This document shows, piece after piece, positions 3,044 through 18,836 of a stretch of 26,649 nucleotides of DNA. Each line of letters starts with the position of its first letter. Position 1 is the first letter of the stretch. Made by a program: the position numbers and the translations under genes. The DNA is from a virus (lineage: Duplodnaviria > Heunggongvirae > Uroviricota > Caudoviricetes), in the IMG/VR virus record IMGVR_UViG_2778261572_000013, positions 1-26,649 of that record. One strand, 5' to 3'. The notes under the pieces were generated by a model, which saw only the letters and a list, made by a program, of their open reading frames with translations, had not been told where the DNA came from and made no database searches.

Positions 3044-3982
3044 TTATTGTATTGTTAAGATAATGCTGGCTATAATTTGAATATCCTCAATGGAACACTC
3101 AAAATCCTTACTCCCACCAGAAACAAGAATTTTGTTCTTAGGTAAACGAGTTAACTCTTTTAAAGATAACTCATTGTCAATTCCTACTAACCATTTTCCA
3201 TCTCTAATTAGGTGAAATTCTTTATCACATATGACATGTTTTTCTCCATTGCTTACAAACATCAAGCTGCTAGTTTCTTGCTTCGGAAGTAGACACCGAT
3301 CCATGGATAAAAAACCTGACTCGACAAGCACGCCATTGACCAAATTGAACTTATTTAAAATTACAGTGTTTTCTTCTTGTGAACTATTTGGTGTTTCGAT
3401 TCCTGTAACTAGCCAGGCGAGATCCGCTTTGGTTTCTAATGCGCATTTAATCACCCAATCCGCAGGGAAAGAATCTCGCATGTATCGTGTGGCTAATGTG
3501 CTTTTTGAAATACCAAGGTGGTCGGCTAAGGCTTGGCGGGTTTTAAACCCGTAAGCATTAACAATCCTCTCTATCGCGGCTTTTCCTCCGTTAGTAAGCT
3601 CAATGTGATTCTCAATGCGGCGCTTAAAGGATGATTGATGAGCGTTGCTGTTAAACCCCTCATGTGGGACTGTTTCATCATGTTGTTCCACATAAGGGGG
3701 GAAACTTTCTTCTGCATTGTTAGAACCAAAGGCCAGCCATTCTAGGGATGCGCCAGTTTCCATTGAACATATAACAACCCAATCAGCAGGGAAGGTATCG
3801 CGTGCATATCTATTAGCCATTGTGCTTTGTGAAATACCAAGATGCTTACAGAAGGCTTGGCGTGATTTGAAACCATAGGCCTTGAGTATCCTCTCAATGA
3901 CTTTTTGCCCTCCACGATTCTGCATGACCATAGCTTTCAGACTATCTTCAATATGGCGAAATGTGATTTTTTGAGTTGACAT
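3044..3982 (-). CDS. 186 CI-like immunity repressor with tandemly duplicated N-terminal DNA-binding domain
   Basis: 312 aa. Residues about 29-85 and 137-193 are paralogous (IERI.AYGFK.RQA..HLGIS.ST.A.RY.RD.FPADWV..C..ET.A.L.WL), resembling the phage CI repressor N-terminal domain. Divergent from the cox/cII operon, as expected for the repressor. Confidence 0.7.
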   Translation of the reverse strand: MSTQKITFRHIEDSLKAMVMQNRGGQKVIERILKAYGFKSRQAFCKHLGISQSTMANRYARDTFPADWVVICSMETGASLEWLAFGSNNAEESFPPYVEQHDETVPHEGFNSNAHQSSFKRRIENHIELTNGGKAAIERIVNAYGFKTRQALADHLGISKSTLATRYMRDSFPADWVIKCALETKADLAWLVTGIETPNSSQEENTVILNKFNLVNGVLVESGFLSMDRCLLPKQETSSLMFVSNGEKHVICDKEFHLIRDGKWLVGIDNELSLKELTRLPKNKILVSGGSKDFECSIEDIQIIASIILTIQ

Positions 3983-4069
3983 ATTCTTTATGTGAACCTA
4001 TTCTCCGTTTTGTGATGTTTTGTCACGATTAATACCGGCTCACCACAAGCCAATAGGAGATGTTGCATC
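3983..4069. promoter_or_regulatory. Divergent promoter/operator region of the immunity switch
   Basis: Lies between the leftward repressor gene and the rightward early operon; contains the direct repeat GTTTTGTGA/GTTTTGTCA and an RBS (GGAG) for the 4070 ORF. Confidence 0.5.
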
Positions 4070-4291
4070 ATGACCCCTAACATTTCAATAACTCTGAATA
4101 CGCCACACGTCACAATTGAGCGTTATAGCGAACTTACTGGTCTTTCTATCGACACCATCAACGATATGCTGGCTGATGGTCGTATCCCTCGCCATCGCCT
4201 TCGGAAAGACAAGAAAAGAGAAAAGGTAATGATCAACCTTGCTGCTCTTACCGTTGATGCACTTACTGATTGCAATGTTGTATTCAACTAG
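4070..4291 (+). CDS. Small DNA-binding protein, Cox/Apl-like (excisionase/switch regulator) candidate
   Basis: 73-aa basic protein, first gene of the rightward early operon, with an HTH-like segment ([25 protein letters not shown]). Assigned by position and size only. Confidence 0.5.
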
Positions 4292-4323
4292 TTCCATTTT
4301 GGGATGCATCAGGAGTGTCGACT

Positions 4324-4833
4324 ATGTTTGATTACCAAGTTTCCAAACATCCACATTTTGATGAAGCCTGTCGTGCATTTGCATTGCGCCACAACTTGGT
4401 GCAACTGGCAGAACGTGCAGGTATGAATGTGCAGATTCTGCGGAACAAGCTGAATCCAGCTCAACCTCATTTATTAACCGCACCAGAAATTTGGTTGCTT
4501 ACTGATCTGACAGAAGACTCAACACTGGTAGATGGTTTTCTGGCACAGATTCACTGCCTGCCATGTGTTCCGATTAATGAGGTGGCAAAAGAGAAACTGC
4601 CGCATTACGTCATGAGTGCAACAGCAGAGATCGGGCGTGTAGCTGCAGGCGCGGTATCTGGCGATGTAAAAACCAGTGCAGGCCGTCGTGATGCTATCAG
4701 CAGCATTAACTCTGTAACACGACTGATGGCGTTGGCTGCTGTTTCATTGCAGGCCCGTTTACAGGCTAACCCTGCGATGGCGAGTGCAGTTGATACCGTG
4801 ACTGGCCTCGGTGCTTCATTTGGTTTGCTGTGA
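4324..4833 (+). CDS. Phage regulatory protein CII-like (186 CII/CP76 family)
   Basis: 169 aa starting at MFDYQV with an AGGAG RBS 5 nt upstream; position after the apl-like gene as in 186. Family assignment is from memory of the CP76-type sequence, not verified. Confidence 0.55.
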
Positions 4834-4992
4834 GGTGCTTATGCTGACGAAAGAACCATCATTTGCATCGCTGCTGGTAAAATAAAGCCCGGCAATGCAC
4901 TACGGTCACGGCTGGATCATGGGAGAGGATGGTAAACGCTGGCATCCATGTCATTCACAAGATGAATTGCTGTCTGAATTGACCACGAGAAA

Positions 4993-5232
4993 ATGGAGAA
5001 AGTCCAAATGTATGCGGCAGAAAGTGAAGTGGTTTATCAGTTTCGTTACAGAGGGGAGAGTTATTCAGTACCTGAAGATGATTTGCTCTGTTGCTATCCG
5101 TCGTTGTCGGGCGATGGTAGCTACTTTTTCACGCTAAAGGATGGAACCTTTATACGTGGTGAAAAAGTACAAGAAGTGATGCGTATAAAGACATCACCTC
5201 TTGAACGTTATCGGCGAAGTATTTATCGGTAA
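4993..5232 (+). CDS. Hypothetical early protein
   Basis: 79-aa ORF (alternative ATG at 5008 preceded by GGAG). No recognisable motif. Confidence 0.4.
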   Translation: MEKVQMYAAESEVVYQFRYRGESYSVPEDDLLCCYPSLSGDGSYFFTLKDGTFIRGEKVQEVMRIKTSPLERYRRSIYR

Positions 5233-5471
5233 CGATCTATCAGTGTCTGTATCAGATGAGTGAATTCTTGTTGTTTAACCGAACCTAAAGGAAGTTTGTT
5301 TAATTCTTCGCGGAGGAGCTCAAAAAATGCAGATTGATTTGCTGAGTCAGTTCGAAATAAGGAGTGGATCAGACCTGAAACAAGAATTCGTTGAACTGCA
5401 ACCTCATCGCGAAGACTGGAGATCTCGTTTTCAAGTTGCTCTAAACGCTCTCTTTCAACCGGGTTCAACAT
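5223..5471 (-). CDS. Hypothetical coiled-coil protein encoded antisense to the early operon
   Basis: 82 aa with a good RBS (GAAGGAA 7 nt upstream of ATG) and coherent helical sequence; overlaps the 3' end of the 4993-5232 ORF by 10 bp, convergently. Confidence 0.45.
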   Translation of the reverse strand: MLNPVERERLEQLENEISSLRDEVAVQRILVSGLIHSLFRTDSANQSAFFELLREELNKLPLGSVKQQEFTHLIQTLIDRYR

Positions 5472-5552
5472 TGATGATTCCTTCTAGCTATCAATATGTT
5501 GGTAATGGATCATATCAAAAATTTTTTAGTAGATGTGTTGTGGGATGCATAA

Positions 5553-5894
5553 ATGGCTATTGAAGGCGCTGCGGCGACTGTTCCATTAAGTCCCGGTGAA
5601 CGCCTGAATGGACTTAATCACATAGCGGAATTAAGGGCGAAAGTTTTTGGCCTGAATATTGAGTCAGAGCTTGAGCGGTTTATTAAAGATATGCGTGATC
5701 CACGGGATATCAATAATGAACAAAATAAACGGGCACTGGCTGCCATATTCTTTATGGCAAAAATTCCAGCTGAACGTCATAGCATCAGCATTAATGAGCT
5801 GACCACTGACGAAAAGCGGGAGCTGATTAAAGCAATGAATCATTTTCGTGCAGTGGTGAGCTTATTTCCCAGACGGCTAACCATGCCGAATTAA
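5553..5894 (+). CDS. Hypothetical early protein
   Basis: 113-aa ORF in the early operon; weak RBS. Confidence 0.45.
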   Translation: MAIEGAAATVPLSPGERLNGLNHIAELRAKVFGLNIESELERFIKDMRDPRDINNEQNKRALAAIFFMAKIPAERHSISINELTTDEKRELIKAMNHFRAVVSLFPRRLTMPN

Positions 5895-5961
5895 CCAACT
5901 AATGAAATTAATGGCGTAAACCCGCCGGGCATCCCTTTATCTAAATTCAGGAGAATTGATT

Positions 5962-6195
5962 ATGCGTAATATTGAAATCCTCACGACTAAAACCGGACCG
6001 GATGACGCAGGGCTTAATATTTTACTGACAGAGGCTCGTCTGGAAGAACGTCGGGCAAGGGCTGAAGCAATGGCAGCTCGCCTTGATAGCCTGGCGTGTC
6101 ATATCACATCCCGCCAGCTAAACCACGTCGAAGCGGCAGAACTGCTGCGTGTAACTGCTGAAGCAATCCAGAACGAAGCGCAGGAGATCCACTAA
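5962..6195 (+). CDS. Hypothetical early protein
   Basis: 77 aa from ATG 5962 with AGGAGAA RBS; its stop overlaps the next start (TAATG). Confidence 0.5.
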   Translation: MRNIEILTTKTGPDDAGLNILLTEARLEERRARAEAMAARLDSLACHITSRQLNHVEAAELLRVTAEAIQNEAQEIH

Positions 6196-6422
6196 TGGCT
6201 GATGCAATGGATCTCGTACAGCAGCGCGTTGAAGAAGAACACCAGCGCCATATTCGTGCTGCCCGTGCCAAAACACCGGGCGTGTCTCGCGTGCTTTGTA
6301 TTGAATGTGAAGCGCCAATTCCGCCAGCACGACGCCGCGCCATTCCGGGAGTGCAGCTTTGCATTACCTGCCAGGAAATCGCAGAGCTGAAAGGCAAACA
6401 TTACAACGGAGGTGCTGTATGA
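6195..6422 (+). CDS. TraR/DksA-family C4 zinc-finger protein
   Basis: 75 aa with CxxC...CxxC (CIECEAPIP...CITCQ) in the arrangement typical of phage TraR/DksA-like proteins. Confidence 0.7.
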
Positions 6423-10078: not shown

Positions 10079-10098
10079 TACTGTAAATATAAACAGTG
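10079..10098. promoter_or_regulatory. LexA (SOS) box
   Basis: taCTGTaaatataaACAGtg matches the CTGT-N8-ACAG consensus, with promoter-like hexamers just upstream, about 45 bp before the 10140 ORF. Confidence 0.7.
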
Positions 10099-10139: not shown

Positions 10140-10328
10140 ATGCAGGACTATTTTTTGGAGTCTTTGAAGCTCCAGCGCATTGATTTTTTTCTTAAGCTTG
10201 TAGCGGCTAGTGAGTGTAGTGATGAAGAGAAGGGGCTGGCTTTGCAGTGGGTTTCTGAACTGACAGATGAACTCATGGCAAAAATCAGAAGCCACGAATA
10301 CAACCGCTCAATGGATGTCATCAGCTGA
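10140..10328 (+). CDS. Small SOS-controlled protein, possible Tum-like antirepressor N-terminal module
   Basis: 62-aa ORF with strong RBS (AGGAGG) directly downstream of the LexA box; position matches the LexA-controlled tum locus of phage 186 after gene A. Confidence 0.45.
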   Translation: MQDYFLESLKLQRIDFFLKLVAASECSDEEKGLALQWVSELTDELMAKIRSHEYNRSMDVIS

Positions 10329-10338
10329 GGGGACTTTT

Positions 10339-10572
10339 ATGCGCATTGAAATAATGATCGATAAAGAGCAGAAGATTAGCCAGTCTACCCTGGACGCCCT
10401 TGAATCCGAGCTTTACCGCAATCTGCGCCCCCTGTATCCCAAAACGGTAATTCGTATCCGTAAAGGTAGCTCTAACGGTGTGGAACTGACCGGACTGCAA
10501 CTGGACGAAGAAAGGAAGCAAGTGATGAAAATTATGCAGAAGGTGTGGGAAGACGACAGCTGGCTGCATTAA
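10339..10572 (+). CDS. DinI-family protein
   Basis: 77 aa starting MRIEIMIDKEQ, ending WEDDSWLH; resembles DinI (MRIEVTIAK ... WESADDWF). RBS GAGGGGA. Confidence 0.75.
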   Translation: MRIEIMIDKEQKISQSTLDALESELYRNLRPLYPKTVIRIRKGSSNGVELTGLQLDEERKQVMKIMQKVWEDDSWLH

Positions 10573-10842: not shown

Positions 10843-11058
10843 ATGTCAAGCATCGCCGCATTTAGCCTGGGTAACCCAGTTGAACGTCTGGCAAGGGTTC
10901 TTAAAGAGAACCAGGACAAACTCAATCTTAGTAAAGATGGTTTTGTGTCCGTAGACTTGTCTAACAAAAGAGCAATGGATGCCATCAAGGCACAGATGGA
11001 TAAGCTTGAAGGCATCAAAACGAGCACTGTAAAAGAGAAAACTAATAGAACCAGATAA
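10843..11058 (+). CDS. Hypothetical small soluble protein (cassette 1, gene 1)
   Basis: 71 aa with strong RBS (AAGGGGGAG). AT-rich. Stop overlaps the next start (TAATG). Confidence 0.55.
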   Translation: MSSIAAFSLGNPVERLARVLKENQDKLNLSKDGFVSVDLSNKRAMDAIKAQMDKLEGIKTSTVKEKTNRTR

Positions 11059-11900
11059 TGGCAACATTACTTTTAGCAGTGATTTTGGTTAGTGGTTTTA
11101 TTTATGTAAACCTATCACTTTCAACAAGATACCGATATAAGCGTTCCAACGGCTGGGACGCTTATTTTTTTGTGGCTGCCTGGGGTATCGTTTTTTTTCT
11201 CCTTGGCGGTTTTTTCACCTTTATTTTGAACGTCAGCGGAGGGTTTCGTTGGCTGGCTAATGCCTTGAATCTAACACCTGACAGTTTTAATGGCATGTTG
11301 TCTTCATCGAAAGACAAACTTCAAAGAATAAATGAAATCAAACAGATAGCATGGGTTATGATTTCAATTGTCCTCGCTGCGATTTCAGGTTTTGGAAATA
11401 AGTTACGCACATCACGTGGAGATCGTCGCTGGGATGCCTTAGCTAAAGCTGTGGGTAATAACGCTTTCGAATCATTACTCATGGAAGCGTCCGCAAGACA
11501 GTTTCCGATCATAGCAACTCTGTCGTCTCGCAAAATCTATGTTGGTCTTGTTACTTGTCCGGCGTTAGAAAACGGGCTTTCAGAGCACCTTGAACTTCTC
11601 CCGATGTTAAGCGGATATCGGGATAAAGATGATCTAACGATTAGTATCACGACTAACTATCACCAACATTATCTTGATAGTGGTGTGATAAGTGGAATGT
11701 CTCGGCTTAATATCGAAGATTTCCGTGTGCTCATACCAAAAGATGAGGTTGAAACAATTTCGTTTTTTGATACTGAGACATATAACAAATTTAAAGAAAA
11801 TGAAGCCAGGGATAGAAAGAGCTGTCGAAAGATTGGTAGTAAAAGTGCATCTTCGCACAGCAAGCGTGCAGCAGATACTGAGTCAAATGATCGTGCATGA
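11058..11900 (+). CDS. Hypothetical membrane protein (cassette 1, gene 2)
   Basis: 280 aa; three hydrophobic segments in the first about 115 residues, then a hydrophilic domain of about 165 aa. Translationally coupled to the 71-aa gene. Confidence 0.55.
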   Translation: MATLLLAVILVSGFIYVNLSLSTRYRYKRSNGWDAYFFVAAWGIVFFLLGGFFTFILNVSGGFRWLANALNLTPDSFNGMLSSSKDKLQRINEIKQIAWVMISIVLAAISGFGNKLRTSRGDRRWDALAKAVGNNAFESLLMEASARQFPIIATLSSRKIYVGLVTCPALENGLSEHLELLPMLSGYRDKDDLTISITTNYHQHYLDSGVISGMSRLNIEDFRVLIPKDEVETISFFDTETYNKFKENEARDRKSCRKIGSKSASSHSKRAADTESNDRA

Positions 11901-11948
11901 CTATGCTGCATGAGATCGCATGATCGTTTGAGGATCGTTTTTGCTAAG

Positions 11949-11972
11949 GCCCGCCAGAACTGGCGGGCTTTT
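11949..11972 (+). terminator. Rho-independent terminator after cassette 1
   Basis: GCCCGCCAG-aa-CTGGCGGGC perfect 9-bp stem followed by TTTT. Confidence 0.7.
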
Positions 11973-12231
11973 GCATAGATCATGCACCTGCATGAAAACT
12001 ACTACATAAAGCGGGCAGGCGTGGCGGGGATACGAGCGCGCGCTGTCGGTATTTTCAAAATTTAAGTAAGATAGTAAATGCAAAATGTGTATCACTCTAT
12101 CGGGTACAGAAAAACCATTCAGAAACTATAATTGAACAGTAACAAACGTGATGATGTTCACTTTTTTAAATTTTTTATATAAACTGATGGGTACTATGAC
12201 AGTAATATGCCAGCTTGCGTGAGAATGAATT

Positions 12232-12696
12232 GTGGAAAAAGAGCTAAATCAAAATCAGATCAGTGAAGTGCAGATTAATGTCTGCCACAAAATCTATGAA
12301 TTTTTTAAGTCTTTAGATGGAGCATCCGATTTCAAAATCGAAACTGAAACCAGTGGCGATGATGGCGATCTAAGTTTTTCTTTTGAGCAATCAAAGACTA
12401 TTTTTAAAGTGGAAGTGCTTTCTACAGAATACTTTAAATTAATTAGAATTATAAATGCATTTGACTTTACCGCAACAAAGTCTATTGAGGAAATGAATTT
12501 ATTAGGCAGGGCAAATCAATTTAATGCATATGCAGTGGGCATTAAGGCTCTGGTTCATACTAAAAAAGTAGGTTATGTTGATTTCTGCGTAGATATATTA
12601 TCTTCTAAAGGTGACGTTAATTCTAGCGATCTTAATTTATCCTTGGTCTTACTAAGAAGTGCGCCAATGAATTTTCTGGCAGTAACTAAGGACTAG
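12232..12696 (+). CDS. Hypothetical acidic soluble protein (cassette 2, gene 1)
   Basis: 154-aa ORF from a GTG start, AT-rich, no recognised motif; followed 10 bp later by the next gene. Confidence 0.45.
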   Translation: MEKELNQNQISEVQINVCHKIYEFFKSLDGASDFKIETETSGDDGDLSFSFEQSKTIFKVEVLSTEYFKLIRIINAFDFTATKSIEEMNLLGRANQFNAYAVGIKALVHTKKVGYVDFCVDILSSKGDVNSSDLNLSLVLLRSAPMNFLAVTKD

Positions 12697-12706
12697 TGAG
12701 GACAAT

Positions 12707-13480
12707 ATGCCAACAAAGCCTAGTTTAGATGAAAATTCAACGTTAAACTTGAAGGCGCAATCTTATTTAAAAGCTGTCTCGGTAGATGCCTCAAATGATT
12801 CTACCCACAATGGATGGAATGCTGATGTAATTATTTTTTTTGTTTTCATTGTTGTTGTAATGGCTCTGACACTATCAAAATGGCTTCAGAATAAAATAGA
12901 TGAATTTATTTCAAAAAAATATTTTAGATGGGTTTTTTCTGGGGTAATTCTTCCAGCGATATCGTTAGGCTTAGCAAGCTACACAACAGCATCAAATCAA
13001 AAATTTGTATACATTGCTACAATTATAGTAAGTCTTGTGATTGGTGAGCGAGCTTCTGCACTGACAGCTGAGAAATCCGAACAACAACTTGAGGCTGAGA
13101 CAGGAAAATTAACTAGCAAAATAAGTGTGCTAGAAGCTGCACATACTAAGGCTTTGGAAAAGAAAGATGCTGAACTTGCAGCTAAAGGTAATGAAATTAG
13201 AGCTGTATCTGATGAGCTTACTAAAAGAGTTGATGAGTTACGTCAGAATTATTTGCGAAGATTGTACGAAATAGCTACAGATCATCAAGAGGCTGATTGT
13301 GTTGTCATTAAATTGAGAGTAAAAGAGGTGGCTCAAGATATTATGGCAACAAGTGGGCTTCTTTTAACTATGGATAGTATTGATTATCAGGTGAGAAATA
13401 ACCAAGTTCCGTTGCCACAGGAAAGTTCAATTGTTTATGAATATGCTATGAAGAATGCTAAAGCTCGAAATCAGCAATGA
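12707..13480 (+). CDS. Hypothetical membrane protein with coiled-coil domain (cassette 2, gene 2)
   Basis: 257 aa with RBS GTGAGGA; three hydrophobic segments (about residues 41-113), then a heptad-like charged region (EKSEQQLEAETGKLTSKISVLEAAHTKALEKKDAELAAKGNEIRAVSDELTKRVDELRQ). Confidence 0.55.
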   Translation: MPTKPSLDENSTLNLKAQSYLKAVSVDASNDSTHNGWNADVIIFFVFIVVVMALTLSKWLQNKIDEFISKKYFRWVFSGVILPAISLGLASYTTASNQKFVYIATIIVSLVIGERASALTAEKSEQQLEAETGKLTSKISVLEAAHTKALEKKDAELAAKGNEIRAVSDELTKRVDELRQNYLRRLYEIATDHQEADCVVIKLRVKEVAQDIMATSGLLLTMDSIDYQVRNNQVPLPQESSIVYEYAMKNAKARNQQ

Positions 13481-13518: not shown

Positions 13519-14547
13519 TTACAGTTTATATTCAGAGAAATTTATAATGCGCTCACCCAACCAATAATTAATCTCTGCAATCCGCATTTGCAGGGCTACT
13601 AGCTCATTTCGCACAAAAACATTTGCCGCCTTCTCTACATCCCCAAACCCTCCAACATTATTAGGCATTATCCCCATCATTTGCGGCGGTACGCGGTGCG
13701 CCGCCATCATGTCGTCCCGGCTCACGTTCTTGATATTCAGAAACTCATCCTTCGCCGCGACTTCTGACAGAGGAATGATCTGAAGCCCATCCTTTTTGCC
13801 GTTAGGCGAGTACATAAACAGGTTGCGGAAGTTACCCGGTCCTTTGGCGCTTTTCATTGCGTTGCGGAGGTTGTTCACATCCTCCTGGTTTTGCGCGGCA
13901 TCGGTCATGTACATGATGAAGCCTGCATGACTGCCGTTAATGTAATACTTCCGGCGGAACAGCGTGGCGGACTCGTTGAGCAGAGCGGATGGAATAGCAG
14001 AAAGATAGCCAGGCAGGCCGTAGATCTCCTGATTAATATCCGGTTCCATCAGATGAAAGATGCTGCCTTTCGTGAACTGATACGGCTGGGTTGCCATACC
14101 GTATTGCACAAACCAGTAGGTATCCAGGTCTAATCCGCGTCGAGTGTATTTTGCCAGGGCAGGTTCAAGGGCGATAACTTCACCGAAGCGGTTCGTGCGT
14201 TTCTCCAGGTAGGCATTACCAAATACCAGATAGTCCTGCACAAAACGTGAAAAAGCCTGCTGGCTGAGCAACGGGTGAGGGATATAGGTGCTGGTCAGAA
14301 TGTTGCACTTTACTGCAATCGGTGAGCTGTGGTGTACGGCGGCGCGGAAGGTTCGCGCCAGGCCGTCGAAACTCACTGGTGGCTCATACCAACGGTCCAT
14401 CTGTACGCATTCCACATAGTCCAGCAGTTCGCGGCGGTCCAGAACAGGAACGGGATCACCGAAGCTGAATGCTTCGGCTGAAGTCTGGTTTTTATGCTGG
14501 ATCTGTTTCGTCGCCGCAGCGCGGTTCTTCTTACTCTTTCCCATCAA
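13519..14547 (-). CDS. Q: Portal vertex protein (P2 gpQ-like)
   Basis: 342 aa (P2 Q is about 344 aa), leftward, adjacent to the terminase remnant, in the P2 cos-Q-P arrangement. Confidence 0.8.
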   Translation of the reverse strand: MMGKSKKNRAAATKQIQHKNQTSAEAFSFGDPVPVLDRRELLDYVECVQMDRWYEPPVSFDGLARTFRAAVHHSSPIAVKCNILTSTYIPHPLLSQQAFSRFVQDYLVFGNAYLEKRTNRFGEVIALEPALAKYTRRGLDLDTYWFVQYGMATQPYQFTKGSIFHLMEPDINQEIYGLPGYLSAIPSALLNESATLFRRKYYINGSHAGFIMYMTDAAQNQEDVNNLRNAMKSAKGPGNFRNLFMYSPNGKKDGLQIIPLSEVAAKDEFLNIKNVSRDDMMAAHRVPPQMMGIMPNNVGGFGDVEKAANVFVRNELVALQMRIAEINYWLGERIINFSEYKL

Positions 14548-15236
14548 AAAATCTCCACAATATTGCTGGTATTGGCGGACTCGCCCTGCAGTGGTTCGTT
14601 AAACAGTGCGTGCATTGTTGCCCAGGCCAGATCGGCATGGCTGGCTTCTTCGCTGCGGCTGGCTTCATAGGTCGGGCGGTTGCCGCTGGCGGTGGTGGCG
14701 CGACGGATTGCCATGAATGACTGCGCAATGTCGGTGTGCCCGGCGTCAAACTCAAGACGGCGGTGGCTGATAATGTCGTAGGCCTTGAGTACCAGGGCGT
14801 TTTTAACGTTGGGGTTGTAGACAAACTCCCGGACGGCAGGAAAAAACGCTTTCACGTTCTCGTAAACCCCGTGACCAACGCCGGTTGAGTCGATGCCGAT
14901 ATAGGTCACGTTGTACTGTTCGGTCAGTTTTTTGATGGCGTCAGCTTGGGCGCGAAAGTCCATTCCGCGCCACTGGTGACGCTCAAGAATGCGGAACTTA
15001 CCGCCTGGCACGGCTGGCGGTGCCACCACCACGCATCCGGCGCTGTCGCCGTTCTGCGTACCTTTTGCCGGGTCATAACCGATCCACACTTCGCGCCAGC
15101 CAAACGGGCGCAGGGCCAGTGCATGAAAGTCGGTCCAGACTTCCCAGCTGTCGGTACAAATACCGCGCATTGTTTCACTGCCCCCATCACCGCAACCATA
15201 AGGCTCCAGTAAGTTTTTTCTAACGGAGCACGGCTC
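14544..15236 (-). pseudogene. P: Terminase large subunit (gpP) 3' fragment; N-terminal ATPase domain missing
   Basis: Open frame ends where the O gene starts. The segment from about WIGYDPAKG...DSAGCVVVAPP onward resembles a terminase nuclease domain. No Walker A region is present, and the frame's first 47 codons are antisense to the O start. Confidence 0.6.
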
Positions 15237-16070
15237 ATGACAGTGAAAGCAAAGCGTTTTCGCATCGGGGTGGAAGGTGCCACCACCGACGGACGCGAAA
15301 TCCAGCGTGAATGGCTGGAACAGATGGCAGCCAGCTACAACCCGGCGGTGTATACCGCGCTGATTAACCTTGAGCACATCAAGTCTTATCTGCCGGACAG
15401 CACCTTTAACCGCTACGGCAAGGTGACGGCGCTGTTTGCTGAAGAAATCACGGAGGGTCCGCTGGCGGGCAAGATGGCACTGTATGCCGACGTTGAGCCA
15501 ACGGAGTCCCTGGTGGAACTGGTGAAAAAAGGCCAGAAATTATTCACCTCTATGGAAGTCAGCCCGAAGTTTGCTGATACGGGCAAAGCCTACCTGGTCG
15601 GCCTGGCAGCCACTGATGACCCAGCCAGTCTGGGTACGGAAATGCTGACATTCAGCGCCAGCGCAGCCCATAACCCGCTGGCAAACCGCAAGCAGAATCC
15701 CGCCAATCTCTTTACCGCCGCAGAGGAAACGGTGATCGAACTGGAAGAAATCCAGGATGACAAACCGTCCCTGTTTGCCCGTGTCACGGCGCTGTTTACA
15801 AAAAAAGAGCAGTCCGACGATGCCCGGTTTTCTGATGTGCATAAGGCCGTGGAACTGGTCGCCACTGAGCAGCAAAACCTGAGTGTGCGCACCGAAAAAT
15901 CCCTTTCTGAGCAGGAAGAACGTCTGTCTGAGCTGGAGACAGTTCTGCAGGCACAACAGGCCGCCTTTAACGAACTGGTGGACAAGCTGAGCCATGAAGA
16001 CAGCCGCCAGGACTACCGCCAGCGTGCAACGGGCGGTAACGCCCCCGCTGACACTCTGACCAATTGCTGA
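15237..16070 (+). CDS. O: Capsid scaffolding protein (P2 gpO-like)
   Basis: 277 aa (P2 O is about 284 aa), first gene of the rightward head operon, GGAG RBS. Confidence 0.8.
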   Translation: MTVKAKRFRIGVEGATTDGREIQREWLEQMAASYNPAVYTALINLEHIKSYLPDSTFNRYGKVTALFAEEITEGPLAGKMALYADVEPTESLVELVKKGQKLFTSMEVSPKFADTGKAYLVGLAATDDPASLGTEMLTFSASAAHNPLANRKQNPANLFTAAEETVIELEEIQDDKPSLFARVTALFTKKEQSDDARFSDVHKAVELVATEQQNLSVRTEKSLSEQEERLSELETVLQAQQAAFNELVDKLSHEDSRQDYRQRATGGNAPADTLTNC

Positions 16071-17799: not shown

Positions 17800-17894
17800 C
17801 AGAACGTGCCCCCGCGCACGGGCGGCACGGGGTGGCGAAAGGCATAGCCACATCAAAATCCCGTTCACCGCCCTCTATTTCAGGAGAAAGCAGC

Positions 17895-18125
17895 ATGAAG
17901 TTTGTTGCGCCAGAACAGGCACCGGAACAGGCGGAAATCATCAGAAATACGCCGTTCTGGCCTGATGTGGACCTGTCGGAGTTTCGCAGCGTGATGCGCA
18001 CTGACGGCACGGTGACGCAGCCGCGTTTAAAGCAGGTTGCCCTGTCTGGACCGACGGCATTGGTAATACGTCGGGCGTCATTCCCGGCAAAACCATTACG
18101 GAGCGACAGGCAGCAGAAGGGCTGA
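17895..18125 (+). CDS. L: Head completion protein gpL-like, probably 3'-truncated
   Basis: ATG 17895 with AGGAGAAAG RBS; only 76 codons (P2 L is about 169 aa); frame is lost where lysozyme-like sequence begins in another frame. Confidence 0.4.
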   Translation: MKFVAPEQAPEQAEIIRNTPFWPDVDLSEFRSVMRTDGTVTQPRLKQVALSGPTALVIRRASFPAKPLRSDRQQKG

Positions 18126-18397
18126 TCTCCAACGTGCTGCGTGTGGAGCGGGCGCTGGAAAGGTGTGTGAAGCAACAGCCGCCGCAGAAGGTGTATGACG
18201 CTGCGGTGTCGTTTGCCTTCAACGTGGGTACGGGCAATGCCTGCAGTTCCACGCTGGTGAAATTGCTCAATCAGCGGCGCTGGGCGGATGCGTGCCGACA
18301 GTTGCCGCGCTGGGTGTATGTAAAAGGTGTGTTTAATCAGGGGCTGGATAACCGCCGTGCACGGGAGATGGCCTGGTGCTTACAGGGAGCAAACTGA
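18005..18397 (+). pseudogene. K: Phage lysozyme (gpK-like, GH24 family) lacking the N-terminal catalytic region
   Basis: Frame-2 open stretch encodes CPVWTDGIGNTSG...GKTITERQAAEGL...SFAFNVGTGN...RRW..., matching the middle and C-terminus of lambda/P21-type lysozymes; no in-frame N-terminus with the catalytic Glu upstream. Confidence 0.55.
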
Positions 18398-18398
18398 A

Positions 18399-18836
18399 AT
18401 GAAAAAGAAAGTAATCAGCGGACTGTTTCTGATGTTATGGATGGCGCTGTTAATCGCAGCAATGGTGTATCCGCAGGGGATTTTTCCGGTACTGGCAGCG
18501 TCCGGTGTCTGGGTAGCCTGTCTGCTGACATGGGGGGCAATTCCGGTAGCACTGGTTGCGTTAATTAAGAACGGCCCGCTCTGGCAGGAGTTGAGGGCAT
18601 CTTTGCTGAAGAGCATTACCCGAAAAGAAAACGTATTTATCAGCTGGATGATGCGATTGCTGATTGTCGTAAGTCTCGCCTGGACGGGGTGGGCTATTAC
18701 CCTGGTCTTTTATCTGCTGACCGTTATCGCCACCATTTTTCACTGGCCGCCATCCGTTACTGACGTTATGCCGCTGACCGAAGTGCTGGAATGGCGGTAT
18801 AAAGCGATTCAGAGAAGCGGGGACAACGATGAGTGA
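18399..18836 (+). CDS. Small membrane protein, LysA-like candidate
   Basis: 145 aa with four hydrophobic segments, RBS AGGGAG, immediately after the lysozyme remnant as P2 lysA follows K. Its stop overlaps the T start. Confidence 0.4.
   Translation: MKKKVISGLFLMLWMALLIAAMVYPQGIFPVLAASGVWVACLLTWGAIPVALVALIKNGPLWQELRASLLKSITRKENVFISWMMRLLIVVSLAWTGWAITLVFYLLTVIATIFHWPPSVTDVMPLTEVLEWRYKAIQRSGDNDE

What the first reader, a model, noticed from the sequence alone, without database searches (positions are those of the whole stretch)
5223..5471. Antisense coiled-coil gene embedded in the early operon, overlapping a convergent ORF
An 82-aa helical protein with a good RBS is encoded on the opposite strand to all surrounding early genes, and its 3' end overlaps the 4993-5232 ORF by 10 bp. 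Convergent overlapping transcription in a lytic/lysogenic control region could give antisense interference. Alternatively the gene is a small moron, such as an antitoxin-like or regulatory protein.
Basis: seen in the sequence. Interest (0 to 1): 0.4.

Follow-up and report, generated by a model that had tools for sequence, protein, structure and literature searches.

The report
Conserved backward-facing small prophage gene
The 82-codon reading frame that runs against the early genes of this 186-like prophage is a real, conserved gene for a small helical protein with its own promoter, already annotated in databases as a hypothetical protein, and its function is still unknown.

Summary
An 82-aa ORF lies at 5223-5471 on the minus strand, has a good ribosome-binding site, and overlaps the stop of a plus-strand gene by 10 bp.

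It is a true gene:
- Homologues at 63-70% identity change mostly at its third codon positions (dN/dS 0.13-0.18).
- All 24 E. coli-lineage copies examined are intact.
- The rival plus-strand ORF 5327-5563 is only a shadow of it.

The family (phrog_26925, 79-86 aa) is small and confined to Enterobacterales. In every locus examined it sits in the early operon of a 186-like prophage, on the opposite strand, tail-to-tail with a phrog_4312-like gene that follows cII.

An extended -10 promoter (TGATATGAT, 5517-5509) is kept 35-37 nt upstream of the start codon in seven diverged lineages. A hairpin at 5170-5203 could end the transcript.

The gene has co-diverged with cII, so it is an old accessory part of the operon. 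It is present in 65 of about 598 related E. coli prophages.

The predicted fold is three helices, and no database match is significant. A weak, unstable similarity to the RssB anti-adaptor IraP is only a lead.

The most likely role is a protein-binding factor made in the lysogen and silenced by lytic transcription. That role is inferred, not shown. Interest is modest.

The parts
5223..5471 (-). Coding sequence of the 82-aa helical protein (phrog_26925 family; stop codon at 5223-5225).
   Evidence: ORF listed. phrog_26925 match with E 6.5e-57 over the full length. Third-codon-position excess and dN/dS 0.13-0.18. RefSeq annotates the same CDS in E. coli as WP_001556502.1 and WP_000934004.1.
5479..5485 (-). 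Ribosome-binding site AGAAGGA, 7 nt upstream of the ATG.
   Evidence: Read from the sequence. A purine- or G-rich block sits at the same place in homologues (GGGG, AGAGGA, GGGAG).
5487..5494 (-). Conserved box TTGATAGC in the predicted 5' untranslated region. Its role is unknown.
   Evidence: The same position holds CTGATAGC, TTGATTAC or GAGATAAC in L007, L012, L005 and L045.
5509..5517 (-). Extended -10 promoter element TGATATGAT for leftward transcription. The predicted transcription start is near 5502. There is no good -35 hexamer.
   Evidence: The block TG(A/G)TA(T/A)(G/A/C)(A/C)T is kept 35-37 nt upstream of the start codon in 7 diverged lineages whose flanks have diverged. This includes L021, where the neighbouring gene is fil rather than DUF5347. 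It is inferred, not mapped.
5160..5203 (-). Terminator-like hairpin (stem-loop 5203-5170) followed by a U-run, 20 nt downstream of the stop codon and inside the 3' end of the convergent gene.
   Evidence: Found by the terminator scan. Folding gives -21.5 kcal/mol, z -4.5. The consensus fold has 12 pairs; one pair is G.U in 7 of 10 sequences, which would be a C.A mismatch on the plus-strand RNA, and 2 pairs show compensatory changes. The U-run is present only in the window lineage and in Pantoea, and the hairpin is absent in L017 and L019.
5008..5232 (+). Convergent partner gene (phrog_4312 family, 74 aa, unknown function). It follows cII in all loci examined, and its stop overlaps the target by 10 bp.
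   Evidence: phrog_4312 match with E 1.8e-48. Third-position excess lies in this frame even where it overlaps fil. It is present tail-to-tail with the target in every lineage examined.
5327..5563 (+). Shadow ORF on the opposite strand of the target. It is not a gene.
   Evidence: Substitutions fall on its second codon positions, and a stop or indels break the frame in L007 and L005. It has no family match.

Best explanation
Shown: this is a genuine protein-coding gene and an old accessory member of the early region of 186-like prophages. It encodes a 9.6-kDa, mildly acidic protein.

Predicted from sequence:
- The protein forms three helices, and the long N-terminal helix has leucine-zipper spacing.
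- The gene is transcribed leftward from its own extended -10 promoter (5517-5509), against the rightward early lytic operon.
- The transcript probably ends at a hairpin inside the 3' end of the convergent phrog_4312 gene.

Inferred:
- The promoter shows no CI, LexA or conserved CII site, so it should fire when the early promoter pR is repressed. The protein would therefore be made in the lysogen.
- When pR fires, RNA polymerases reading through from the left should suppress the promoter by transcriptional interference. The two mRNAs would also pair over their 3' ends. Expression of the small protein and of the lytic operon would then be reciprocal.
- The protein itself most likely works by binding and inhibiting another protein. 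It has no DNA-binding, enzymatic or membrane features. The partner is unknown.
For: It is a gene:
- Codon-position pattern and dN/dS 0.13-0.18.
- 23 clusters of constant length.
- 24 intact E. coli-lineage copies.
- It is intact here although the prophage is defective and fil carries a stop codon.

It is an old resident of the operon:
- Identical placement and orientation in Escherichia, Klebsiella, Lelliottia, Pantoea and Pectobacterium prophages.
- Its identity to homologues correlates with that of cII and of the phrog_4312 gene.

It is accessory:
- The cassette is in 65 E. coli genomes, against 598 that carry the neighbouring module.
- It is absent from close relatives 813R9 and 4LV2017.

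Promoter and transcript end:
- Conserved extended -10 at a fixed distance from the start codon.
- No 7-mer is shared with the immunity switch region, and there is no LexA box at the promoter.
- Hairpin with variation compatible with the minus-strand RNA.

Fold: three helices, pLDDT 77.5.

Convergent-promoter interference is established for pR and pL of phage 186 itself, according to the 186 record annotation and my own knowledge of the literature.
Against: - No transcript data were available. The promoter and the transcript end are predictions.
- The promoter scan that requires a -35 hexamer did not call this site.
- The hairpin is also kept in 813R9, which lacks the gene. It lacks a U-run in most lineages and is absent in the Pectobacterium-type loci.
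- A CII-site-like sequence (2 mismatches) overlaps the -10 in the window lineage. Regulation by CII in this lineage therefore cannot be excluded.
- Nothing identifies a binding partner. Fold and sequence searches gave no significant match.
Confidence: 0.5

Rival explanations
1. The protein is a prophage-borne relative of IraP, the host anti-adaptor. It would bind RssB, block delivery of RpoS to ClpXP, and so raise the general stress response in lysogens.
For: - IraP is the most recurrent weak family hit: PF10796 is hit by 3 of 16 members, best E 0.02, and NCBIfam PRK10244 gives E 0.0088.
- Profile-profile alignment is colinear over 66 columns, with score 25.3 and P 3.7e-4. Column shuffles give mean 11 and maximum 17.7; reversed profiles score 9-10.
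- The two proteins have about the same length and the same predicted helix layout: 4-40/43-58/64-81 against 2-38/42-58/67-82.
- Both families are confined to Enterobacterales.
Against: - The similarity is not robust. With larger alignments the score falls to 20.0 (P 0.0038, probability 8.7%), barely above the best of 100 shuffles at 19.3.
- Identity is 17%.
- A HMMER search of 1.8 billion representative proteins with the family profile did not list IraP.
- IraP sequences do not hit phrog_26925.
- Both proteins are helical with heptad patterns, which inflates such scores.
Confidence: 0.13
2. The protein is an antidote to a neighbouring host-takeover protein (the phrog_4312 product or Fil). It would protect the lysogen from leaky early expression, or neutralise the same protein of a superinfecting relative.
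For: - The gene is tail-to-tail with the phrog_4312-like gene in every lineage, and within one gene of fil or a fil-like gene.
- fil is repeatedly inactivated in these prophages, which points to a cost of leaky expression.
- The arrangement of a small convergent gene beside a gene that may be toxic resembles toxin-antidote layouts.
Against: - About 89% of E. coli prophages with the fil/phrog_4312 module lack the gene.
- The phrog_4312-like gene may simply be a core gene of this clade, which would make the co-occurrence uninformative.
- Toxicity of the phrog_4312 protein is unknown.
- There is no match to defence or antitoxin families.
Confidence: 0.15
3. The main function is at the level of transcription or RNA. 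The convergent promoter and antisense transcript would act as a brake or insulator between the early genes (apl, cII, fil) and the replication genes, at the place where phage 186 has terminator tR1. The protein would be secondary.
For: - The position matches tR1 of phage 186.
- No plus-strand terminator is predicted here.
- The 3' ends of the two mRNAs must overlap.
- Interference between convergent promoters is known in phage 186.
Against: - Strong purifying selection acts on the protein sequence over long divergence.
- Close relatives do without both the cassette and any terminator at this junction.
Confidence: 0.1
4. The ORF is not a gene. The real gene would be the plus-strand ORF 5327-5563, or the region would be non-coding.
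For: The plus-strand frame is open for 78 codons in the window and stays largely open in some homologues.
Against: - Substitutions fall on the second codon positions of the plus frame, and indels or a stop break it in L005 and L007.
- It has no family match, whereas the minus frame has every mark of a coding sequence.
Confidence: 0.02

Closest known systems
PHROG family phrog_26925; RefSeq hypothetical proteins WP_001556502.1 and WP_000934004.1
   Same: Full-length match (E 6.5e-57), the same 82 aa, and the same CDS annotated by PGAP in 65 E. coli genomes, including E. coli W.
   Different: Nothing differs; this is the same family. It carries no functional annotation, and I found no paper that mentions it.
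IraP (YaiB), anti-adaptor of RssB, Pfam PF10796
   Same: Similar size, three-helix layout with a long N-terminal coiled-coil helix, restriction to Enterobacterales, and a weak colinear profile similarity.
   Different: The similarity is below any accepted threshold and is unstable. IraP is a chromosomal gene next to phoA, not a prophage gene. No shared diagnostic motif is known.
Lysogen-expressed accessory genes ('morons') of temperate phages, such as old in this same prophage
   Same: Own promoter, orientation independent of the surrounding operon, and present in only some relatives.
   Different: It was not recently inserted, because it has co-diverged with cII. It lies inside the early lytic operon, not at the known P2-type cargo sites. 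It has no terminator of its own outside a neighbouring gene.
Convergent and antisense control elements of temperate phages (pR/pL of phage 186; OOP RNA of lambda, antisense to the end of cII)
   Same: A leftward transcript starts downstream of cII and runs against the early rightward transcript, overlapping the 3' end of an early gene (and for OOP).
   Different: This transcript encodes a conserved protein. It overlaps the gene after cII, not cII itself. No regulatory effect has been shown.
TF-smORF modules of Silpe et al. 2023 (PMC10432266), in which a small orphan protein inactivates the phage repressor
   Same: A small orphan helical protein encoded near the immunity and replication region, divergent from a possible DNA-binding protein (DUF5347 has a weak HTH_22 hit).
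   Different: The gene on the promoter side is not constant: it is DUF5347, fil, a 58-aa ORF or a 108-aa ORF. The promoter looks constitutive. This prophage already has a LexA-controlled DinI/Tum-like gene.

Membership tests
phrog_26925 (unknown function) | Full-length match to the family profile. | tested here: met
   E 6.5e-57, residues 1-82 matched to profile positions 1-82 of 82. Distant members also match, with E from 1e-9 to 1e-21.
IraP anti-adaptor (Pfam PF10796 / NCBIfam PRK10244) | Score above the curated family cut-off. | tested here: not met
   The window protein has no hit. The best member gives 16.5 bits against a cut-off of 78. PF10796 is hit by 3 of 16 members, best E 0.02.
IraP anti-adaptor (Pfam PF10796 / NCBIfam PRK10244) | Significant and robust profile-profile similarity. 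| tested here: inconclusive
   P 3.7e-4 and probability 36% with 16 against 15 sequences. P 0.0038 and probability 8.7% with 30 against 102 sequences, where the best shuffle scored 19.3 against the real 20.0.
IraP anti-adaptor (Pfam PF10796 / NCBIfam PRK10244) | Binds RssB and stabilises RpoS. | not testable with these tools
   Needs an interaction assay and an RpoS half-life measurement.
Moron / lysogenic-conversion gene | Own promoter, independent of the surrounding operon. | tested here: met
   Conserved extended -10 element 35-37 nt upstream of the start codon in 7 lineages. This is a prediction only.
Moron / lysogenic-conversion gene | Own terminator flanking the gene. | tested here: inconclusive
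   A hairpin with a U-run is present in the window and in Pantoea. It lies inside the neighbouring gene, lacks a U-run elsewhere, and is also kept in a phage without the gene.
Moron / lysogenic-conversion gene | Inserted between genes that are adjacent in relatives, with patchy distribution. | tested here: met
   In 813R9 and 4LV2017 the phrog_4312 stop is followed directly by the DUF5347 ribosome-binding site. The cassette is in 65 of 598 E. coli genomes that carry the module.
Moron / lysogenic-conversion gene | Recent horizontal acquisition (foreign composition or a phylogeny unlinked to the neighbours). | tested here: not met
   GC content is 0.40-0.42, like the flanks. Divergence tracks cII and the phrog_4312 gene.
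Moron / lysogenic-conversion gene | Expressed in the lysogen. | not testable with these tools
   No transcript data are held.
Type II antitoxin / known anti-phage defence component | Match to a known antitoxin or defence family. | tested here: not met
   No PADLOC, Pfam or NCBIfam match for the window protein or three homologues.

The most novel reading that the evidence does not exclude
A family of prophage-borne IraP-like anti-adaptors. The 82-aa protein, made from its own promoter in lysogens of 186-like phages, would bind RssB (or another adaptor or response regulator) and stabilise RpoS. It would be switched off by convergent lytic transcription on induction. The prophage would then tune the host's general stress response through a gene hidden antisense in its early operon.
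Probability: 0.12. Interest if true: 0.7.

Novelty: new member of a known kind. Interest (0 to 1): 0.35.

Why it matters
The early operon of phage 186 is a textbook system for the lysis-lysogeny switch and for interference between convergent promoters. This work shows that a sizeable subgroup of its relatives carries a conserved gene pointing the wrong way inside that operon, with its own promoter.

Such a gene would be made when the rest of the operon is silent and silenced when the operon fires. That is the expression pattern expected of a factor serving the lysogen. If so, it is a compact natural case for studying reciprocal control by convergent transcription, and possibly a new small inhibitor protein.

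As it stands it is an uncharacterised hypothetical protein already present in databases. The immediate value is modest: a clean annotation, a predicted promoter and transcript end, and clear experiments.

Tried and rejected
Searches that found nothing useful:
- Pfam, NCBIfam and PADLOC scans of the protein and its homologues: nothing significant.
- PDB sequence search: only a synthetic zipper at E 0.85.
- tblastn against 50,697 phage records and 72,556 plasmids: no homologue.
- blastn of the cassette against phages: none.
- Rfam scan of 3900-6400: nothing relevant. No tRNA genes.
- Literature search for the accessions: none.
- The search for related loci on genome contigs with the 16-sequence alignment failed, because no stretch was conserved enough.

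Ideas tested and rejected:
- CII activation of the leftward promoter. A CII-like site (2 mismatches) lies at 5496-5522, but it covers the -10 instead of flanking the -35 as at pE. It is also not conserved in L005, L007 or L012 (and read).
- CI or LexA control. No 7-mer is shared with the switch region, and there is no LexA box near the promoter.
- The phrog_4312 protein as a homologue of 186 Dhr. No similarity by BLASTP or profile comparison.
- A TF-smORF module with DUF5347. The neighbour on the promoter side varies between lineages.
- The plus-strand ORF 5327-5563 as the real gene.

Full report
**Setting.** The window holds the left part of a 186-like (Peduoviridae) prophage.
- On the minus strand lie an integrase gene, an old-type defence gene (PADLOC Old, E 1e-234) and a CI repressor gene.
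- On the plus strand, in order, lie an apl/cox-like gene, cII (Pfam Phage_CP76), fil, a DUF5347 gene, a DUF2732 gene, a TraR/DksA zinc-finger gene, a DUF3850 gene, dam and the replication gene A.
- The finding lies between fil and the DUF5347 gene.

**The observation.**
- The minus-strand ORF 5223-5471 (82 aa) is there. AGAAGGA sits 7 nt upstream of its ATG.
- Its last 10 bases overlap the plus-strand ORF 4993-5232.
- That partner is itself a real gene. It matches phrog_4312 (E 1.8e-48).
- In the stretch where the partner overlaps the annotated 98-aa fil frame, substitutions between lineages pile up on third positions of the phrog_4312 frame, not the fil frame.
- Its likely start is ATG 5008. 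Relatives have ACG at 4993, and a GGAG precedes 5008.

**Is the 82-aa ORF a gene?** Yes.
- RefSeq annotates the same CDS as a hypothetical protein in 65 of 5,426 complete E. coli genomes, among them E. coli W.
- It matches phrog_26925, a family of unknown function, over its whole length.
- Homologues of 63-70% identity, all 82 aa, occur in Lelliottia, Klebsiella and metagenomes.
- Aligned at the DNA level, changes fall 17/14/50, 22/13/39 and 19/18/42 on codon positions 1/2/3 of the minus frame. These are second positions of the rival plus ORF 5327-5563, whose frame is also broken by indels or a stop in two lineages.
- dN/dS is 0.13-0.18.
- Twenty-four copies of the E. coli lineage are all intact, with five synonymous and three conservative replacement polymorphisms.
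- The plus-strand ORF is therefore a shadow of the minus-strand gene.

**Distribution and context.**
- A profile search of 1.8 billion representative proteins found 15 hits at E of 0.001 or below: 13 full-length members of 79-86 aa, one 33-aa fragment (P0015) and one unrelated 2,059-aa protein.
- A second search listed 23 clusters, those with a named source all from Enterobacterales: Escherichia, Pseudescherichia, Lelliottia, Klebsiella, Pantoea and Pectobacterium.
- In every locus I could read, down to 29% identity, the gene lies in the early operon of a CI/Apl/CII-type prophage on the opposite strand. It is tail-to-tail with a phrog_4312-like gene that follows cII, with an overlap of 4-10 nt or a gap of 3-7 nt.
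- The gene on its promoter side varies: DUF5347 in E. coli, Klebsiella and Lelliottia; fil in Pantoea and L021; a fil-like 58-aa ORF or a 108-aa ORF in the Pectobacterium-type loci.
- Its identity between lineages tracks that of CII and of the phrog_4312 protein (Spearman 0.87 and 0.84; the pairs are not independent). So it has been inherited with the operon for a long time.
- It is nevertheless dispensable. Close relatives (phage 813R9, Klebsiella phage 4LV2017) go straight from the phrog_4312 stop to the DUF5347 ribosome-binding site.
- About 598 E. coli genomes carry the neighbouring fil/phrog_4312 module, against 65 with the cassette.
- No isolated phage record and no plasmid encodes a homologue. 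Phage 186 itself has fil, dhr and the terminator tR1 at this place.

**Transcription signals.**
- The 81-bp spacer upstream of the gene contains TGATATGAT (5517-5509 on the minus strand), an extended -10 element.
- The block TG(A/G)TA(T/A)(G/A/C)(A/C)T is kept 35-37 nt from the start codon in seven lineages whose flanking sequence has diverged. One of these has fil, not DUF5347, as the neighbour. This ties the element to the small gene.
- There is no good -35 hexamer, which is why the simple promoter scan missed the site.
- The region shares no 7-mer with the immunity switch region and has no LexA box.
- A CII-like site with two mismatches (5496-5522; the true site at the start of cII is 4324-4350) overlaps the -10. 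It is not conserved in three other lineages and has the wrong geometry for activation. I regard it as probably fortuitous.
- Twenty nucleotides past the stop codon, inside the phrog_4312 gene, lies a 12-13-bp hairpin followed by a U-run (5203-5160).
- The hairpin is kept in most lineages. Its variation gives G.U pairs on the minus-strand RNA but C.A mismatches on the plus-strand RNA, and two pairs change in a compensatory way.
- It is thus a plausible 3' end for the leftward mRNA, with three caveats. The U-run is found only in the window lineage and in Pantoea. The Pectobacterium-type loci lack the hairpin. It is also kept in 813R9, which lacks the gene. This last point remains unexplained.

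**The protein.**
- It is 9.6 kDa with pI 5.3.
- AlphaFold2 predicts three helices (4-40, 43-58, 64-81) with mean pLDDT 77.5.
- Pfam, NCBIfam and PADLOC give nothing significant. The PDB sequence search and three fold searches give nothing significant either.
- The only recurrent weak hit is IraP, the RssB anti-adaptor: PF10796 for 3 of 16 members (best E 0.02) and NCBIfam E 0.0088.
- A profile-profile comparison with 15 IraP sequences gave a colinear 66-column alignment, score 25.3, P 3.7e-4. Shuffled controls averaged 11 with a maximum of 17.7, and reversed controls scored 9-10.
- The predicted helix layout of IraP (2-38, 42-58, 67-82) is nearly the same.
- With larger alignments, however, the score dropped to 20.0 (P 0.0038). 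That is barely above the best of 100 shuffles.
- IraP does not hit phrog_26925, and the HMMER search did not find IraP.
- I keep this as a lead, not a result.

**How it most likely works.**
- Shown: a conserved protein-coding gene sits convergent with, and overlapping, an early gene.
- Predicted from sequence: a promoter that looks unregulated, and a transcript that ends inside the convergent gene.
- Inferred: the gene is on when the early promoter pR is off (lysogeny). The two mRNAs can pair over at least 60 nt. The protein, which lacks DNA-binding, catalytic or membrane features, acts by binding another protein.
- Which protein it binds is open. Candidates are RssB (the IraP-like reading), the phrog_4312 product or Fil (the antidote reading), or a regulator such as CII.
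- The gene is intact in this clearly defective prophage. Here the large terminase is truncated; the lysis, baseplate, fibre, sheath and tube genes are missing; and fil carries a stop codon. This fits a function that serves the lysogen, but it is weak evidence.

**Novelty and score.**
- The ORF is already in RefSeq and PHROGs as a hypothetical protein. No paper in the searchable library mentions it.
- What is added here is the demonstration that it is a real and ancient gene, its strict context, a predicted promoter and transcript end, and testable hypotheses.
- A wrong-way gene inside an early lytic operon is uncommon but not unprecedented.
- I rate it a new member of a known kind (a prophage accessory gene with its own promoter), with interest 0.35.

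Noticed in passing
window 4841-5137 (stop codon at 4883-4885): The fil gene carries an in-frame TAA at codon 15, where relatives have CAA. The same codon is TAA in Klebsiella-type loci (L007, L010), and fil of E. coli W is annotated as a pseudogene. This filamentation gene therefore seems to be inactivated repeatedly in prophages.
   Followed up: partly
window 5008-5137: The 3' half of the annotated 98-aa Fil frame overlaps the phrog_4312 gene in another frame. Selection, judged from the third-position excess, acts on the phrog_4312 frame. PGAP annotates only fil in E. coli genomes.
   Followed up: partly
window 3044-3982 (minus strand): The CI repressor is 312 aa and has two Phage_CI_repr helix-turn-helix domains plus one C-terminal domain, against about 190 aa in phage 186. 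Similar long CI proteins occur in Klebsiella phage 4LV2017 and in Pectobacterium loci.
   Followed up: no
window 3236-3262: A near-perfect CII binding site (ATGTTTT-N13-CAAACAT, 1 mismatch) lies inside the 3' part of cI, about 240 bp upstream of the old gene. It may be a second CII-dependent leftward promoter.
   Followed up: no
window 10081-10096 and 10267-10572: A perfect LexA box (CTGTAAATATAAACAG) lies upstream of a DinI/Tum-like ORF. This is the likely SOS-controlled antirepressor operon, as in phage 186.
   Followed up: partly
window 14544-15377 and 17832-18836: The prophage is defective. The large terminase keeps only its C-terminal nuclease domain. gpL is cut after about 36 profile positions and is followed directly by gpE, the tape measure, gpU and gpD. 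The lysis, baseplate, tail-fibre, sheath and tube genes are missing. Host genes (an Asp-Al_Ex family permease gene and ybjM) start at about 24030.
   Followed up: partly
window 5170-5203 and L001 2802-2884: The hairpin inside the 3' end of the phrog_4312 gene is also conserved in phage 813R9, which lacks the 82-aa gene. Its variation favours the minus-strand RNA. The reason is unknown.
   Followed up: partly
window 11058-13480: Three ORFs (280, 154 and 257 aa) lie between the Tum-like gene and the portal gene. The first two have no Pfam match. The third has only a weak TetR_C_4 hit (E 2e-4, 22 bits against a cut-off of 21). They may be cargo genes.
   Followed up: no
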